Counted from the stretch's first letter, positions 2,984 through 10,807 are shown. The stretch is DNA of 64,000 nucleotides from a virus (IMGVR_UViG_3300036770_002544:10654-74653); one strand, 5' to 3'. The notes: a model not told the origin generated them from the sequence alone. Numbers and translations: made by a program.

Positions 2984-3058
2984 GGGCTGTAGGTGTTGTT
3001 GGGGGCACACGGGCTTTGCAAGCCTGGAGGAACGGTTCGATCCCGTTACGGTCCACCA
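2984..3058 (+). tRNA. tRNA-Ala(TGC)
   Basis: Acceptor gggctgt/acggtcc with G:U pairs. D-arm gtgt/acac. Anticodon loop TTTGCAA. T-arm aacgg-TTCGATC-ccgtt. CCA encoded. Confidence 0.7.
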
Positions 3059-3139: not shown

Positions 3140-3181
3140 AGTTTGGTTGTAGTCGCAGGTTCGAGTCCTGCCCGCTGGTCA
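3140..3181 (+). pseudogene. tRNA 3'-half fragment (T-arm plus acceptor remnant)
   Basis: gcagg-TTCGAGT-cctgc T-arm with no matching 5' half. It shares a cgctggt direct repeat with the preceding tRNA. Confidence 0.35.
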
Positions 3182-3193
3182 AGTTAAAAGCAG

Positions 3194-3233: not shown

Positions 3234-3308
3234 AGGGGGTTCGCCAAGTGGTAAGGCATCTGATTTTGATTCAGACATCCGGTGGTTCGATCCCATCACC
3301 CTCTGCCA
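3234..3308 (+). tRNA. tRNA-Gln(TTG)
   Basis: Acceptor agggggt/accctct. D-arm gcc-aagtggtaa-ggc. Anticodon arm tctga-TTTTGAT-tcaga. T-arm ggtgg-TTCGATC-ccatc. gCCA. Confidence 0.7.
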
Positions 3309-3315
3309 AAAATTT

Positions 3316-3340
3316 AGCCGTGTAGCTCAGAGGAAGAGCA
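3316..3340 (+). pseudogene. tRNA 5'-half fragment immediately upstream of the HNH gene
   Basis: gccgtgtagctcagaggaagagca equals acceptor plus D-arm. No anticodon or T arms follow. Confidence 0.35.
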
Positions 3341-3381
3341 AATCGTATGCAGAGCATAAATACATGTAAGGAGTGCTCTGT

Positions 3382-3762
3382 ATGAAAGCAGTATGTAAAA
3401 CATGCAAAAATGAATTTGTAGTTGGAAGAAGTTCTACCGGAAAGTATTGTTCGTTAACTTGTTCAAAAGTAGGACAATCAAACGACCGTAGGCAAAACTT
3501 TTTAGAAGGTAAAATGACTAGCCGTGCACTCATGAAAGTTCATATGACTGACATACACGGCTGGAAATGTATGTGTTGTAATAATACTGAGTGGAACAGT
3601 AAGCCTATACCACTCGAATTAGATCATATCGACGGTAATGCAGGAGATAATAGGCCACAAAATTTAAGATTACTGTGTCCAAATTGTCATGCGCAAACGC
3701 CAACACATAAAGCAAAAAATAAAGGAAACGGAAGAGGTAGTCGAGGTCTTCCGTGGTATTAA
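3382..3762 (+). CDS. HNH homing endonuclease
   Basis: HNH motif ELDHIDGNAGDNRPQNLRLLCPNCHA plus N-terminal Cys pairs. SD taaggag 9 nt upstream of the ATG. Confidence 0.8.
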   Translation: MKAVCKTCKNEFVVGRSSTGKYCSLTCSKVGQSNDRRQNFLEGKMTSRALMKVHMTDIHGWKCMCCNNTEWNSKPIPLELDHIDGNAGDNRPQNLRLLCPNCHAQTPTHKAKNKGNGRGSRGLPWY

Positions 3763-3763
3763 C

Positions 3764-3828
3764 ACCAGGTTAGCTCAGTGGTAGAGCAGCGGCTTGATAA
3801 GCCGTTGGTCGCAAGTTCAAATCTTGCA
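3764..3828 (+). tRNA. tRNA-Ile(GAT)
   Basis: Perfect acceptor accaggt/acctggt. D-arm gctc-agtggtag-agc. Anticodon arm gcggc-TTGATAA-gccgt. T-arm gcaag-TTCAAAT-cttgc. aCCA. Confidence 0.8.
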
Positions 3829-3834
3829 CCTGGT

Positions 3835-3930
3835 ACCAAACAATCCACTGTAGGCTTGGACGCCCGGAATGCATGCGCCGAAGAGACGGTTCGATTCCGT
3901 CCTTGGATAAACCAGGTTCGATCCCTGGAC
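3835..3930 (+). tRNA. atypical roughly 95-nt tRNA-like RNA with two T-arm-like hairpins (class II tRNA, composite or pseudo-tRNA)
   Basis: Perfect 7-bp acceptor ccactgt...acagtgg. Two hairpins gacgg-TTCGATT-ccgtc and ccagg-TTCGATC-cctgg. No clean anticodon arm was found by eye. Confidence 0.35.
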
Positions 3931-3943
3931 AGTGGGCCTTTTT

Positions 3944-4014
3944 ATTCCGCAGAATCCGAGCTAGGTGCACGGACTTGACTGTTAATCAATGATTAGCTGG
4001 GTTCGAACCCCAGA
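3944..4014 (+). tRNA. tRNA-Asn(GTT)-like, degenerate acceptor and D arms
   Basis: Anticodon hairpin ttga-CTGTTAA-tcaa. T-arm ctggg-TTCGAAC-cccag. 3' end atgcgga-g-CCA. The 5' acceptor pairs only 5 of 7. Confidence 0.4.
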
Positions 4015-4018
4015 TGCG

Positions 4019-4094
4019 GAGCCAAACATGGGGGCAGCAGAGGGCTGCGGTGATCCCTTGCAAGGATCATGACTACAAGGGTTCGATACCCTGG
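4019..4094 (+). tRNA. tRNA-Ala(TGC)-like second copy, imperfect acceptor
   Basis: Anticodon arm gatcc-CTTGCAA-ggatc. T-arm aggg-TTCGATA-ccct. Ends ggcctcc-a-CCA. Confidence 0.45.
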
Positions 4095-4123
4095 GCCTCC
4101 ACCAAATAAGCAGATGACGTTTC

Positions 4124-4131
4124 TGCTCTTT
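4124..4131 (+). promoter_or_regulatory. TATAAATA box (T4-type late-promoter-like)
   Basis: tataaata lies 29 nt upstream of the 4160 ATG. A second copy sits at 2432-2439 upstream of a tRNA. Confidence 0.3.
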
Positions 4132-4159
4132 TGTATAAATAAAACAAAGGAGATCGAGC

Positions 4160-4546
4160 ATGAACGTTAATCAAAAGGGCAACATAGGCTTGCTAAAAGT
4201 CATAGGAGACTTGTATAATAAAGGCTACACAGTGTTTAAGCCTTTTGACGATTACAATCCAGTTGACTGTATTGCGATGAACGCAGAAGGCAAGACATTT
4301 AGATTACAGGTGAAGTATCGCAGTCCCGATCGAGATGACTCGTACGAGATTTCTGCTTCATCTATGGTAAATGGTAAGAGAGCACAAATTAACCGCGGAC
4401 TCATTGATTATTGGGCTGTATACCTGTCAGATTTAGACCAGGTAGTGTACATGCCGATAAGTATGATGGAAGGTAAAAAAGTTCACTACATTACCAGAAA
4501 ACAATTAGGTGAGATGGATGAGAGGTTGAAATCGGCACCCTGCTAA
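4160..4546 (+). CDS. hypothetical protein (possible small PD-(D/E)xK-like nuclease)
   Basis: RBS aaggagatcgagcATG. The 3' end overlaps the 5' half of tRNA-Ser by about 38 nt. Confidence 0.5.
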   Translation: MNVNQKGNIGLLKVIGDLYNKGYTVFKPFDDYNPVDCIAMNAEGKTFRLQVKYRSPDRDDSYEISASSMVNGKRAQINRGLIDYWAVYLSDLDQVVYMPISMMEGKKVHYITRKQLGEMDERLKSAPC

Positions 4547-4710: not shown

Positions 4711-4786
4711 TCCTCAGTAGCTCAGTTGGTAGAGTAGCGGACTGTTAATCCGTTGGTCGCTGGATCGTGCCCAGCCTGGGGAGCCA
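4711..4786 (+). tRNA. tRNA-Asn(GTT)
   Basis: Acceptor tcctcag/ctgggga. D-arm tagctcagttggtagagta. Anticodon arm gcgga-CTGTTAA-tccgt. T-arm gctgg-ATCGTGC-ccagc. gCCA. Confidence 0.85.
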
Positions 4787-10333: not shown

Positions 10334-10807
10334 ATGATGAAGAAAATCGATCTAGAACAAGTACGCCAGTTTATTGAAGCACAAACACCAGAAACAAAAA
10401 TCTATCTGGGTTGTGACTCCGAACGTCTGCGTGTCGACGGCCGTTGGTATGCCGATTATATTCTAGCGATTGTTGTTCACATCAATGGCAACAACGGTTG
10501 TAAGATTTTCGGCGAAGTACATCGTGAACCGGTGTGGGATGCCAAGCCAGGCAAGCCAAGTATGCGTCTTATGACCGAAGTGTACAAAGTCAGCGAACTG
10601 TATCTCAAGTTAGCAGAAGTGTTAGAAGGTCGACAAGTCGAAGTTCACTTGGACATCAACCCCGACGAACACTATGGATCAAGCTGTGTTATTAGCCAAG
10701 CTGTGGGCTACATCAAAGGCACTTGCAACGTGGTTCCGTTCGTCAAGCCACATGCGTTTGCTGCTAGTTATGCTGCTGACCGATTCAAGGGTTTGAGAGC
10801 AGCCTAA
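10334..10807 (+). CDS. hypothetical protein
   Basis: ATG immediately after the tRNA. The table ORF 10133 start runs through the tRNA, so the internal Met start MMKKIDLEQ is taken. Followed by a strong terminator. Confidence 0.5.
   Translation: MMKKIDLEQVRQFIEAQTPETKIYLGCDSERLRVDGRWYADYILAIVVHINGNNGCKIFGEVHREPVWDAKPGKPSMRLMTEVYKVSELYLKLAEVLEGRQVEVHLDINPDEHYGSSCVISQAVGYIKGTCNVVPFVKPHAFAASYAADRFKGLRAA

What the first reader, a model, noticed from the sequence alone, without database searches (positions are those of the whole stretch)
3835..3930. Atypical ~95-nt tRNA-like RNA with a perfect 7-bp acceptor helix enclosing two T-arm-like hairpins
ccactgt (3835-3841) is exactly complementary to acagtgg (3920-3926). 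The enclosed RNA contains gacgg-TTCGATT-ccgtc and ccagg-TTCGATC-cctgg. This could be a class II tRNA with an unusual architecture, a fused duplicated tRNA, or a structured decoy. No standard anticodon arm is obvious.
Basis: seen in the sequence. Interest (0 to 1): 0.5.

Follow-up and report, generated by a model that had tools for sequence, protein, structure and literature searches.

The report
Phage tRNA mimic with two T-arms
This ~91-nt segment is a real, conserved, apparently undescribed kind of phage tRNA look-alike: it keeps a tRNA's ends and elbow, has a second T-arm and no anticodon, and carries a self-complementary loop that probably lets two copies pair.

Summary
The element spans 3845-3935, plus the tail GCC at 3936-3938.

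It is not a tRNA. ARAGORN and the Rfam models call nothing there, even at E<=10.

It is not debris either. I found the same architecture in about 73 loci: viral contigs, metagenomes, and the cultured cyanophages S-CREM1, B3 and B23. The plan is a 7-bp acceptor helix, a short D-like hairpin with a UUGG loop, a variable hairpin V in the anticodon-arm position without an anticodon, T-arm 1, a D-loop-like linker (YUGGNAWAA), and T-arm 2 stacked on the acceptor.

All five helices covary: 97.5% of cells pair against ~47% in slid controls, and 25 of 30 pairs change on both sides. Members nearly always sit inside same-strand tRNA arrays at tRNA-like spacing, unannotated.

In this window's subtype the tip of hairpin V always carries a 6-10-nt palindrome, with at least 7 different sequences. 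That suggests kissing-loop homodimers.

Best reading: a non-decoding tRNA mimic, matured like a tRNA and acting in trans. Its function (a decoy or sponge is my leading guess) is untested.

I rate it a new variant of a known kind (phage tRNA-like RNAs such as T4 rnaC). Interest 0.7.

The parts
3845..3851 (+). 5' strand of the 7-bp acceptor-like helix (CCACUGU)
   Evidence: Pairs perfectly with 3929-3935. In the family all 7 pairs show changes on both sides and 97% of cells are paired. In 12 of 14 distinct subtype sequences the 3' strand, which the search pattern did not select, is fully complementary.
3853..3864 (+). Hairpin D (D-arm equivalent): GGC-UUGGAC-GCC, loop with invariant GG
   Evidence: The stem covaries: GGC/GCC, GAC/GUC, CACC/GGUG, AAC/GUU. 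It is 100% paired. GG is present in the loop of 20/20 members. Ordinary tRNAs align their D arm here.
3865..3880 (+). Hairpin V (in the anticodon-arm position, no anticodon): CGG-AAUGCAUGCG-CCG
   Evidence: The stem covaries: 99-100% paired, with 7 of 8 and 4 of 5 pairs changed on both sides. Loop length is 3-13 nt across the family, so it is not an anticodon loop. Ordinary tRNAs align their anticodon arm here.
3871..3876 (+). Self-complementary hexamer GCAUGC at the tip of hairpin V (overlapping AUGCAU at 3869-3874); proposed kissing-loop dimerisation site
   Evidence: All 14 distinct subtype sequences carry a 6-10-nt palindrome here, with at least 7 different sequences. Counting the loop alone, 12/14 have >=6 nt against a shuffled mean of 1.4 and a maximum of 6. 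The symmetric positions are 100% complementary and 3 positions change on both sides. Predicted self-duplex -11.0 kcal/mol. The 4 extra loci also have palindromes.
3881..3884 (+). Spacer AAGA (variable-loop equivalent)
   Evidence: AAGA or AGA is conserved in most members.
3885..3901 (+). T-arm 1: GACGG-UUCGAUU-CCGUC
   Evidence: A 5-bp stem with a covarying outer part and a T-loop consensus. When left unconstrained by the search pattern it is still a 5-bp stem with a UUCGAUU loop in 11/11 new subtype-B and 4/4 new subtype-A sequences, including the compensatory variant GGCAG/CUGUC. The phage B3 member has GAAAG-UUUGAUU-CUUUC.
3902..3911 (+). Linker CUUGGAUAAA, resembling a stem-less D-loop (YUGGNAWAA)
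   Evidence: GG followed by an A-rich tail is present in 20/20 members. Its role as a docking partner for a T-loop is inferred by analogy with G18/G19 of tRNA.
3912..3928 (+). T-arm 2: CCAGG-UUCGAUC-CCUGG, contiguous with the 3' acceptor strand
   Evidence: It was not part of the metagenome search pattern, yet it is present and 100% paired in all 14 distinct sequences, with 3 covarying pairs.
3929..3935 (+). 3' strand of the acceptor-like helix (ACAGUGG)
3936..3938 (+). Discriminator G plus CC (the genome reads GCC-U, not GCCA)
   Evidence: The tail is GCCU in 10, GCCA in 3, GCCG in 1 and AUCU in 1 of the subtype rows. Neighbouring tRNAs of the same arrays encode CCA.

Best explanation
Window 3845-3935 (+ strand, plus the tail GCC) encodes a member of a conserved, apparently undescribed family of phage tRNA-derived non-coding RNAs.

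Architecture:
- It keeps the tRNA acceptor helix, with a T-arm (T-arm 2) stacked directly on it.
- It keeps a short D-arm with the GG loop, and a helix (V) in the anticodon-arm position.
- That helix ends in a non-anticodon loop, so the RNA cannot decode.
- An extra module is added: T-arm 1 plus a stem-less, D-loop-like linker.

Shown by computation:
- the five-helix fold with covariation;
- strand specificity (many G.U pairs);
- descent from tRNA;
- absence of an anticodon loop;
- residence in same-strand tRNA arrays at tRNA spacing;
- a palindromic tip on hairpin V that is conserved in this window's subtype while its sequence varies.

Inferred:
- The RNA is co-transcribed with the array.
- Its ends are cut by RNase P and the tRNA 3'-processing enzymes, because the acceptor/T-arm minihelix is what those enzymes recognise.
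- The two GG segments dock on the two T-loops, giving two tRNA-like elbows.
- In this subtype two molecules pair through the palindromic loop (GCAUGC here) as a kissing dimer.

Most speculative step: it acts in trans as a tRNA mimic that occupies a host factor recognising the tRNA elbow, T-arm or extra arm. Examples would be a tRNA-targeting defence nuclease or a tRNA-processing or modifying enzyme.

The confidence given (0.6) is for the whole statement. For its parts I would give about 0.9 that this is a conserved, structured, non-decoding tRNA-derived RNA family, about 0.5 for dimerisation in this subtype, and about 0.3 for the decoy or sponge function.
For: Not a tRNA:
- ARAGORN makes no call.
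- Rfam gives no hit at E<=10.
- The S-CREM1 member reaches only 20.2 bits on the tRNA model against a gathering score of 29.

Family:
- 20-member structural alignment: 97.5% of cells paired against ~47% when slid, 25/30 pairs changed on both sides, 0/500 shuffles as high.
- Model R1 scores the window element at 55.8 bits. It is the only window hit above 27 bits. S-CREM1 scores 60.4 and B3 38.9.

Tests free of the selection pattern:
- 18/18 metagenome loci selected only on the 5' part have the full element at 47-58 bits.
- T-arm 2 there is 100% paired and covaries.
- T-arm 1 is conserved when unconstrained, with one compensatory variant.
- Subtype-B acceptor helices are 7/7 paired in 14/15 distinct sequences, with 6 different helix versions.

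tRNA descent: ordinary tRNAs align to R1 as acceptor - D - anticodon arm (=V) - variable loop - T arm, with the 30 positions of linker plus second T-arm deleted.

Context:
- Members lie 1-12 nt from flanking same-strand tRNAs.
- They fill unannotated gaps in the S-CREM1 and B3 arrays.
- Their neighbours differ between arrays, as for an independent gene.

Palindrome.

Fold energy: the family-consensus fold of the element is within 0.3-2.5 kcal/mol of the MFE.

Precedents:
- T4 rnaC, a stable RNA of unknown function in a tRNA cluster, has an acceptor-like helix plus a T-arm (PMC9697503).
- ROOL and GOLLD are phage RNAs encoded near tRNA islands that self-assemble through kissing loops (PMC12286853).
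- The defences Septu and retron-Eco7 cleave the variable arm of a class II tRNA, and phage tRNA-cluster genes counter them (PMC13096335).
Against: - There are no expression, end-mapping, modification, aminoacylation or dimerisation data for any member.
- Selection bias: the 20-member alignment was chosen for closed helices, and hairpins D and V were parsed by hand. The independent tests only partly offset this.
- The closest fetched relative of this genome (L003) lacks the element, so it is dispensable.
- The palindromic loop is confined to one subtype. The others have a GACG tetraloop or other loops, so dimerisation cannot be the family's core function.
- Five members are outside tRNA arrays and share no neighbouring gene, so nothing points to a partner.
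- The 3' tail is mostly GCCU rather than GCCA, so a tRNA-type 3' end is not assured.
- A decoy would have to be abundant to work, and nothing here speaks to abundance.
Confidence: 0.6

Rival explanations
1. It is a functional class II-type tRNA. One version is tRNA-Ser(CGA), with the first 'T-arm' serving as the anticodon arm (loop UUCGAUU read as anticodon CGA). The other version has hairpin V as an anticodon arm and T-arm 1 as the long variable arm.
For: - ARAGORN calls the L083 member tRNA-Ser(cga) and the L119 member tRNA-Leu(cag).
- T-arm 1 sits where a class II extra arm would.
- The discriminator is G in this subtype, as in bacterial tRNA-Ser (own knowledge).
- The one natural T-arm-1 loop variant (B3, UUUGAUU) would still read as a Ser anticodon, UGA.
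- The window has no tRNA-Ser(CGA).
Against: - ARAGORN and Rfam call nothing for the window element, even at E<=10.
- The putative anticodon loop is the invariant T-loop consensus, with U at position 37 where tRNAs have a purine.
- A whole hairpin (V) plus 3-4 nt would lie between the D stem and that 'anticodon stem'.
- Under the other reading, the V loop is 3-13 nt long and mostly a tetraloop.
- The linker between the extra arm and the T stem is 7-15 nt instead of 0-2.
- Discriminator bases vary across the family (A, U, C, G).
Confidence: 0.05
2. It is an aminoacylatable but non-decoding tRNA mimic. A synthetase that ignores the anticodon (SerRS through the extra arm, or LeuRS) charges it, and it donates or sequesters the amino acid outside translation.
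For: - It has an intact acceptor/T-arm minihelix, elbow elements and an extra arm.
- G73 and the CC tail are conserved in this subtype.
- Two radical-SAM enzymes and two Asp/Asn hydroxylases are encoded within the same array.
- SerRS, LeuRS and AlaRS do not need the anticodon (own knowledge; the identity review PMC9976931 was listed but not read in detail).
Against: - Acceptor stems and discriminators are not conserved across the family.
- There is no G3.U70.
- Most members do not encode CCA, and this subtype mostly reads CCU.
- No tRNA-dependent transferase is conserved nearby.
- The radical-SAM neighbours are not shared by other members.
Confidence: 0.12
3. It is a cis-acting maturation or stability element of the polycistronic tRNA transcript. 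It would serve as a processing-enzyme entry site or spacer, with no function as a free RNA.
For: - It is almost always embedded in arrays at tRNA spacing.
- In the window it lies in a sub-cluster closed by a terminator-like hairpin at 4109-4127.
Against: - Five members lie in loci with no tRNA nearby.
- Its position in arrays is not fixed.
- Two T-loops, two GG segments and a palindromic loop are more structure than a spacer needs.
- Many arrays, including the close relative L003, do without it.
Confidence: 0.12
4. It is non-functional debris: a decaying tRNA pseudogene, or a fusion of tRNA fragments created by recombination or homing-endonuclease activity in the array.
For: - The array does contain debris: an orphan T-arm at ~3155-3182 and a tRNA-Ile 5' half at 3310-3345 next to the HNH gene.
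- tRNA fragments are common by-products of mobile-element activity (PMC9897764).
- RNAfold z is only -1.33.
Against: - The same five-helix plan appears in ~73 loci with compensatory changes in every helix.
- There is no similarity to other tRNAs of the array beyond the T-loop.
- The non-paired motifs (GG, AGA, linker) are conserved.
Confidence: 0.04
5. It is a DNA-level element. The palindrome and repeats would serve as a protein-binding, recombination or homing site rather than an RNA.
For: - An HNH homing cassette lies just upstream in the window.
- The tip of hairpin V is a DNA palindrome and includes restriction-site-like sequences.
Against: - The helices contain many G.U pairs, which would be A.C on the other strand.
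- The palindrome's sequence varies while its symmetry is kept, which is not how protein sites evolve.
- Other members have no HNH neighbour.
Confidence: 0.03

Closest known systems
Phage T4 rnaC (species 1 RNA) and rnaD
   Same: - Stable small RNAs encoded in a phage tRNA cluster, just after a homing endonuclease gene and a tRNA.
- rnaC closes an acceptor-like terminal helix directly onto a GGUUCGAAUCC T-arm and carries non-tRNA hairpins inside.
- Their function is still unknown (PMC9697503).
   Different: - rnaC has one T-arm, is 139 nt long and has a different inner architecture.
- R1 scores it at 19.8 bits, no better than ordinary tRNAs.
- It has no D-loop-like linker and no palindromic loop.
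Class II tRNAs (Ser, Leu, Tyr, Sec)
   Same: - Acceptor, D arm, a helix in the anticodon position, an extra arm before the T-arm, and the T-arm.
- Overall length about 90 nt.
   Different: - No 7-nt anticodon loop.
- The extra arm is a full T-arm copy (5 bp plus UUCGAUU).
- A 7-15-nt linker follows it.
- The D loop is only 4-6 nt.
- Not recognised by the tRNA models.
tmRNA tRNA-like domain
   Same: - An acceptor/T-arm minihelix combined with a stem-less, GG-containing D-loop analogue.
- A non-decoding tRNA mimic.
   Different: - No tag reading frame and no pseudoknots.
- No G3.U70.
- 91 nt rather than ~350.
- No ARAGORN or Rfam tmRNA hit on the element.
Bacterial Y RNA YrlA (tRNA-like module)
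   Same: A non-coding RNA that mimics the tRNA T-arm/D-arm elbow. Some are phage-encoded (PMC4201824, listed but not read in detail).
   Different: - In YrlA the ends lie in the Ro-binding stem and the acceptor-like stem is closed (own knowledge).
- It has a single T-arm.
- No Rfam match here.
ROOL and GOLLD RNAs
   Same: - Phage and prophage structured RNAs of unknown function, encoded near tRNA islands.
- They self-associate through kissing loops, and covariation supports the intermolecular contacts (PMC12286853).
   Different: - They are 500-800+ nt and form 8- to 14-mer cages.
- They are not tRNA-derived and show no sequence or structure relationship to this element.
HIV-1 dimerisation initiation site (kissing loop)
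   Same: - A hairpin whose loop carries a 6-nt GC-rich palindrome flanked by unpaired purines.
- The palindrome varies (GCGCGC or GUGCAC) while its symmetry is kept (own knowledge).
- Predicted self-duplex energies are similar.
   Different: The context is unrelated (a retroviral genome). Here the loop sits at the anticodon-equivalent tip of a tRNA mimic, and dimerisation is untested.

Membership tests
Canonical tRNA (Rfam RF00005 / ARAGORN) | Score at or above the model threshold (gathering score 29 bits) | tested here: not met
   No tRNA hit on 3845-3938 at E<=10. No ARAGORN call. The S-CREM1 member scores 20.2 bits.
Canonical tRNA (Rfam RF00005 / ARAGORN) | 5-bp anticodon stem with a 7-nt loop carrying an anticodon | tested here: not met
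   Hairpin V is 3 bp plus a 10-nt loop here. In the family the loops are 3-13 nt, mostly tetraloops.
Canonical tRNA (Rfam RF00005 / ARAGORN) | 7-bp acceptor helix contiguous with a 5-bp T stem and a UUCRANY loop | tested here: met
   3845-3851/3929-3935 with T-arm 2 at 3912-3928 and no intervening base. Covariation.
Class II tRNA | Long extra arm between the anticodon arm and the T arm, joined to the T stem by 0-2 nt | tested here: not met
   T-arm 1 is in that position, but a 7-15-nt linker follows it.
tmRNA (RF00023, ARAGORN) | tRNA-like domain plus tag reading frame and pseudoknots; G3.U70 | tested here: not met
   No tmRNA call on the element. It is 91 nt long with A3-U70. The tmRNA-like hit is on the neighbouring element 4030-4104.
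T4 rnaC-type RNA | Homology in sequence and structure to T4 rnaC | tested here: not met
   R1 against rnaC gives 19.8 bits, within the range of ordinary tRNAs. The inner hairpins differ.
YrlA / bacterial Y RNA | Match to the Rfam model; ends in a Ro-binding stem | tested here: not met
   No match at E<=10. The ends lie in the acceptor helix.
Double-T-arm tRNA-like family defined here (model R1) | Five helices in the order acceptor, D (GG loop), V, T-arm 1, GG-A-rich linker, T-arm 2 contiguous with the acceptor | tested here: met
   55.8 bits, E 1e-11, full-length match. All segments parsed. The sequence was itself in the seed alignment; independent members score 39-60 bits.
Double-T-arm tRNA-like family defined here (model R1) | Location in a same-strand tRNA array at tRNA spacing | tested here: met
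   6 nt after tRNA-Ile and 9 nt before the next tRNA-like element. This is not universal: 5 of 22 members are stand-alone.
Kissing-loop dimerisation hairpin (DIS-like) | Self-complementary hexamer or longer in an apical loop, with symmetry conserved while the sequence varies | tested here: met
   GCAUGC at 3871-3876. 14/14 distinct subtype sequences carry one of at least 7 palindromes.
Kissing-loop dimerisation hairpin (DIS-like) | Physical dimer formation | not testable with these tools
   Only duplex energies could be computed (-9 to -15 kcal/mol).

The most novel reading that the evidence does not exclude
The element belongs to a new class of phage RNA: a tRNA-processed, non-decoding mimic with two tRNA elbows. 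In this subtype it self-pairs through an anticodon-position kissing loop into a four-elbow dimer. Phages would use it to trap or jam a host protein that recognises tRNA shape, for example a tRNA-cleaving or tRNA-modifying defence effector. It would then be an RNA anti-defence factor carried inside tRNA arrays.
Probability: 0.2. Interest if true: 0.88.

Novelty: new variant of a known kind. Interest (0 to 1): 0.7.

Why it matters
Phage tRNA arrays are usually read as codon-usage or anti-defence tRNA supplies, and anything tRNA finders skip is left as a gap. This work shows that one such gap holds a conserved structured RNA.
- It occurs in cultured cyanophages (S-CREM1, B3, B23) and in many uncultured large phages.
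- It cannot decode but keeps everything needed to be handled as a tRNA.

If it is a tRNA-shape decoy or a self-assembling RNA, it adds an RNA-level player to the conflict over tRNAs between phages and host defences. It would also give T4's 50-year-old orphan RNAs (rnaC/rnaD) a comparative context.

It matters for annotation too. ARAGORN miscalls some members as tRNA-Ser(CGA) or tRNA-Leu(CAG), which inflates phage tRNA repertoires.

Cultured hosts and phages exist, so the question can be tested directly.

Tried and rejected
Searches that found nothing:
- Megablast of 3300-4500 against 50,697 phage records: no match.
- Exact or near-exact patterns for the element in viral contigs: none.
- Blastn of the element alone against phages: only T-loop-sized hits.
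- Literature searches for two-T-arm or tRNA-like phage RNAs: nothing describing this architecture.

Leads through neighbouring genes:
- The neighbouring PD-(D/E)XK ORF led to one relative, L003, which lacks the element.
- The neighbouring radical-SAM ORF gave only a 30% identical locus.
- HNH homologues led to 7 arrays, none carrying the element.

Hypotheses tested and dropped:
- A mosaic of other tRNAs in the array is rejected. Only the T-loop motif is shared.
- A protein partner for the stand-alone members was sought, but they share no gene.
- Cellular genomes gave 43 pattern hits, but only ~3 score as family members, all on short MAG contigs.
- In subtype B the GACG loop plus its closing G (GACGG) matches the 5' strand of T-arm 1, which suggested a structural switch. 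The loop stays constant when T-arm 1 changes, so I rejected this.
- A T-box-like pairing between the linker UGGN and the NCCA 3' end was considered. N does not track the discriminator base, so I rejected this.

Methods:
- A plain MAFFT alignment misaligned the covarying 5' half. I replaced it with structure-registered padded alignments.
- The acceptor-pair counts printed were off by one base. I recomputed them.

Full report
OBSERVATION. The window is a large-phage tRNA array. ARAGORN finds 26 tRNAs, all on the + strand, between 2455 and 10318. They are interspersed with small ORFs:
- an HNH endonuclease at 3373-3762;
- a PD-(D/E)XK nuclease at 4160-4546;
- two radical-SAM proteins;
- two Asp/Asn hydroxylases;
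- an RNase H-like protein.

- ccactgt is at 3845-3851;
- gacgg-ttcgatt-ccgtc is at 3885-3901;
- ccagg-ttcgatc-cctgg is at 3912-3928;
- acagtgg is at 3929-3935, followed by GCC.

The T-loop motif GGTTCGANNCC occurs 23 times in the window against 0.29 expected. Neither ARAGORN nor any of the 4227 Rfam models at E<=10 calls anything on this segment. Its folding energy alone is unremarkable (z = -1.33).

IS IT AN ACCIDENT? The array does contain debris:
- an orphan T-arm plus 3' acceptor strand at ~3155-3182;
- a tRNA-Ile 5' half at 3310-3345, abutting the HNH gene.

I therefore tested whether the element is a mosaic of other tRNAs. It shares only the generic T-loop with them. The closest relative I could fetch through a neighbouring gene (L003, PD-(D/E)XK ORF 78% identical) lacks it. 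So do seven arrays carrying a 64-78% identical HNH gene. On that evidence alone it could have been a one-off.

THE FAMILY. I classified them by whether a 7-bp helix closes on the second arm. This revealed close homologues with the same termini (L066, L129) and a wider set with the same plan but different helix sequences. The plan, 5' to 3', is:
- acceptor 5' strand (7 nt), then 0-2 nt;
- hairpin D: 3-5 bp with a 4-6-nt loop that always contains GG, usually UUGG;
- 0-1 nt;
- hairpin V: 3-8 bp with a 3-13-nt loop, commonly a GACG tetraloop;
- spacer AGA or AAGA;
- T-arm 1: 5 bp plus UUCGAUU;
- a single-stranded linker YUGGNAWAA of 7-15 nt that always contains GG;
- T-arm 2: 5 bp plus a T-loop;
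- acceptor 3' strand with no gap, then the discriminator.

On a structure-registered alignment of 20 members, 97.5% of cells form standard pairs, against 40-52% when partners are slid by 1-3 columns. Of the 30 pairs, 25 show changes on both sides, in all five helices, and 0 of 500 shuffles reach the observed values. Many pairs are G.U, which fixes the + strand as the functional one.

CONTROLLING FOR SELECTION. The 20 members had been chosen for closed helices, and I parsed hairpins D and V by hand, so I looked for independent tests.

(a) BLAST with one member found unannotated copies in the cultured cyanophages S-CREM1, B3 and B23. In S-CREM1 and B3 the element exactly fills a ~90-nt gap between two annotated tRNAs. 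The B3 copy has a T-arm 1 (GAAAG-UUUGAUU-CUUUC) that my pattern could not have selected, yet it keeps the pairing.

(b) A metagenome scan anchored only on the 5' acceptor strand, the D loop and half of T-arm 1 gave 18 loci. All 18 have the complete element at 47-58 bits. In the 14 distinct sequences, the unselected T-arm 2 is 100% paired with three covarying positions. The D and V stems also covary.

(c) Scans that leave T-arm 1, or both T-arms, unconstrained still return 5-bp stems with UUCGAUU loops in 11/11 and 4/4 new sequences. One carries a compensatory GGCAG/CUGUC variant.

(d) The subtype-B acceptor helices, which were essentially unconstrained, are 7/7 paired in 14 of 15 distinct sequences, with six helix versions.

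In total about 73 loci carry a member.

Among 185,579 cellular genomes, a stricter pattern gave 43 hits. Only about three of them score as members, all on short MAG contigs. The family therefore looks viral.

RELATION TO tRNA. The covariance model R1 scores the window element at 55.8 bits, and nothing else in the window scores above 27. Ordinary tRNAs align to R1 at <=28 bits as acceptor - D arm - anticodon arm (on V) - variable loop - T arm (on T-arm 1), with the 30 positions of linker plus T-arm 2 deleted. The family is therefore a tRNA derivative that:
- has lost the anticodon loop;
- has a shortened D loop;
- has gained a 'D-loop-like linker plus T-arm' module.

Equivalently, it has class II topology with a T-arm copy in the extra-arm position. 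Rfam sees only sub-threshold tRNA similarity (20.2 bits for the S-CREM1 member) and has no dedicated family. ARAGORN miscalls the L083 member as tRNA-Ser(cga), reading T-arm 1 as an anticodon arm, and the L119 member as tRNA-Leu(cag).

CONTEXT. Of the 22 members first examined, 15 lie in same-strand arrays 1-12 nt from their neighbours. All 21 subtype-A loci lie in arrays of 5-32 tRNAs. Their neighbours differ (Pro-X-Gln, Val-X-Gly or Trp, Gln-X-Ser, Ile-X-Asn-like), as expected for an independently shuffling gene. L202 has the window's exact order. Five members are in loci with no tRNA nearby and share no neighbouring gene. In the window, the sub-cluster tRNA-Ile - element - two further odd tRNAs ends at a terminator-like hairpin at 4109-4127. 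The window genome itself is novel: an 864-aa protein has a single weak hit among phage records.

A SUBTYPE-SPECIFIC FEATURE. In the window's subtype the V loops differ between members, but each contains a self-complementary 6-10-mer. The sequences seen are GCAUGC/AUGCAU, UGCGCA, GCGCGC, UCGCGA, UCGCGCGA, UGCGCGCA and AUUGCGCAAU.
- Counting the loop alone, 12 of 14 have a palindrome of >=6 nt, against a shuffled mean of 1.4 and a maximum of 6 in 2000 shuffles.
- Written as symmetric pairs, these positions are 100% complementary, and three of them change on both sides. They include the two central adjacent columns, which cannot pair within one hairpin.
- Four further loci behave the same way.
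- Predicted loop self-duplexes are -9 to -15 kcal/mol, against -2.5 for the GACG loop of subtype B.

Symmetry that is conserved while the sequence varies is what a loop pairing with a second copy of itself would show. A protein-binding site would not evolve that way. The other subtypes lack this feature, so it is an add-on rather than the family's core.

MECHANISM.

Shown:
- the fold;
- its tRNA ancestry;
- the lack of an anticodon;
- residence in tRNA arrays;
- the palindromic loop.

Inferred from established tRNA biology:
- RNase P and the 3'-processing and CCA enzymes recognise the acceptor/T-arm minihelix and elbow, so the RNA is probably excised from the array transcript like a tRNA.
- The two GG segments probably dock on the two T-loops, as G18/G19 do on Psi55/C56, giving two elbows.
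- Subtype A probably dimerises.

Speculative: it acts in trans as a tRNA-shape mimic that occupies a host factor. The precedents are suggestive only:
- T4 rnaC and rnaD are tRNA-cluster RNAs, and rnaC has an acceptor-like helix plus a T-arm. Their function is still unknown (PMC9697503).
- ROOL and GOLLD are phage RNAs encoded near tRNA islands that self-assemble through kissing loops (PMC12286853).
- Septu and retron-Eco7 cleave the variable arm of a class II tRNA, phage tRNA-cluster genes counter them, and homing endonucleases are often associated with tRNA genes (PMC13096335).

RIVALS.
- A decoding class II tRNA is unlikely. There is no anticodon loop, the T-loop read as an anticodon would have U37, an extra hairpin is in the way, and no model calls it.
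- An aminoacylatable, non-decoding mimic is possible but has no positive support. Acceptor helices and discriminators vary, and the tail is mostly CCU.
- A purely cis-acting processing element is hard to square with the stand-alone members and the elaborate structure.
- The debris and DNA-site readings are contradicted by covariation, by the G.U pairs and by the varying palindrome.

VERDICT. This is a real feature with slightly wrong coordinates. It belongs to a conserved family of double-T-arm tRNA mimics that is absent from Rfam 15 and from the literature I could search. I class it as a new variant of a known kind, namely phage tRNA-like RNAs. The structural claims are well supported; the functional claim is a hypothesis. 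Interest 0.7.

Noticed in passing
window 3945-4025: A second uncalled tRNA-like element: a non-canonical tRNA-Asn(GUU) look-alike with a G7.A66 mismatch and a weak 4-bp anticodon stem. Copies ~80% identical occur in 74 phage records (Acinetobacter and Klebsiella T4-like phages, Synechococcus phage BUCT-ZZ01), mostly unannotated or annotated inconsistently as tRNA-Arg or tRNA-Asn. The window also has a canonical tRNA-Asn at 4711-4786.
   Followed up: partly
window 4029-4104: A third odd element: a tRNA-Ala(UGC) look-alike with G3.U70, encoded ACCA, a 4-nt D loop and an 8-nt variable region. ARAGORN calls it with an offset anticodon position. The best Rfam match is the tmRNA tRNA-like domain at 17 bits. 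It duplicates the canonical tRNA-Ala at 2984-3058. L202 has the same order Ile - double-T element - Asn-like - Ala-like.
   Followed up: partly
window 3310-3762 and loci L006-L012: The HNH gene is preceded in all 8 contigs by the motif GAGCATAAATACA. In the window, L009 and L010 that motif follows a tRNA 5' half (acceptor plus D arm). The window fragment 3310-3345 matches the tRNA-Ile genes of L008 and L011 at 24/25 nt. The HNH gene is always followed directly by an intact tRNA-Ile(GAT). This looks like a homing cassette that inserts into tRNA-Ile genes after the D arm and carries its own replacement copy.
   Followed up: partly
window 3155-3182: An orphan T-arm (GCAGG-TTCGAGT-CCTGC) plus a 3' acceptor-like strand, just after tRNA-Trp, with no 5' half. 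It is probably a tRNA gene remnant.
   Followed up: no
L011 3465-3620: A ~150-nt element directly after tRNA-Ile with tRNA- or tmRNA-like ends (GGAGAC ... GGUCUCCACCA). ARAGORN does not call it.
   Followed up: no
L002 1414-1500 (Acinetobacter phage KARL-1) and L001 2455-2527 (Synechococcus phage BUCT-ZZ01): Further unannotated tRNA-like RNAs lie just upstream of the conserved Asn-like element. KARL-1 has an Arg(UCU)-like anticodon arm with a long-range CCCAC/GUGGG helix replacing the D arm. BUCT-ZZ01 has an acceptor and T-arm plus one long hairpin.
   Followed up: no
L065 ~3890-4040 and L110 (two sites): tRNA genes carrying a ~60-70-nt insertion after the anticodon region. The insertion itself contains a T-arm-like hairpin. 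This is a different kind of double-T-arm arrangement.
   Followed up: no
window 10337-10807 and L010 ~3590-4000: An RNase H-like (PF04308) ORF is embedded in the tRNA array here and in an unrelated HNH-bearing array.
   Followed up: no
L057 3784-3885 and 4468-4567: One viral contig carries two family members (37.7 and 46.1 bits) in the same array. The stronger one has an 8-bp hairpin V with a 7-nt loop.
   Followed up: no
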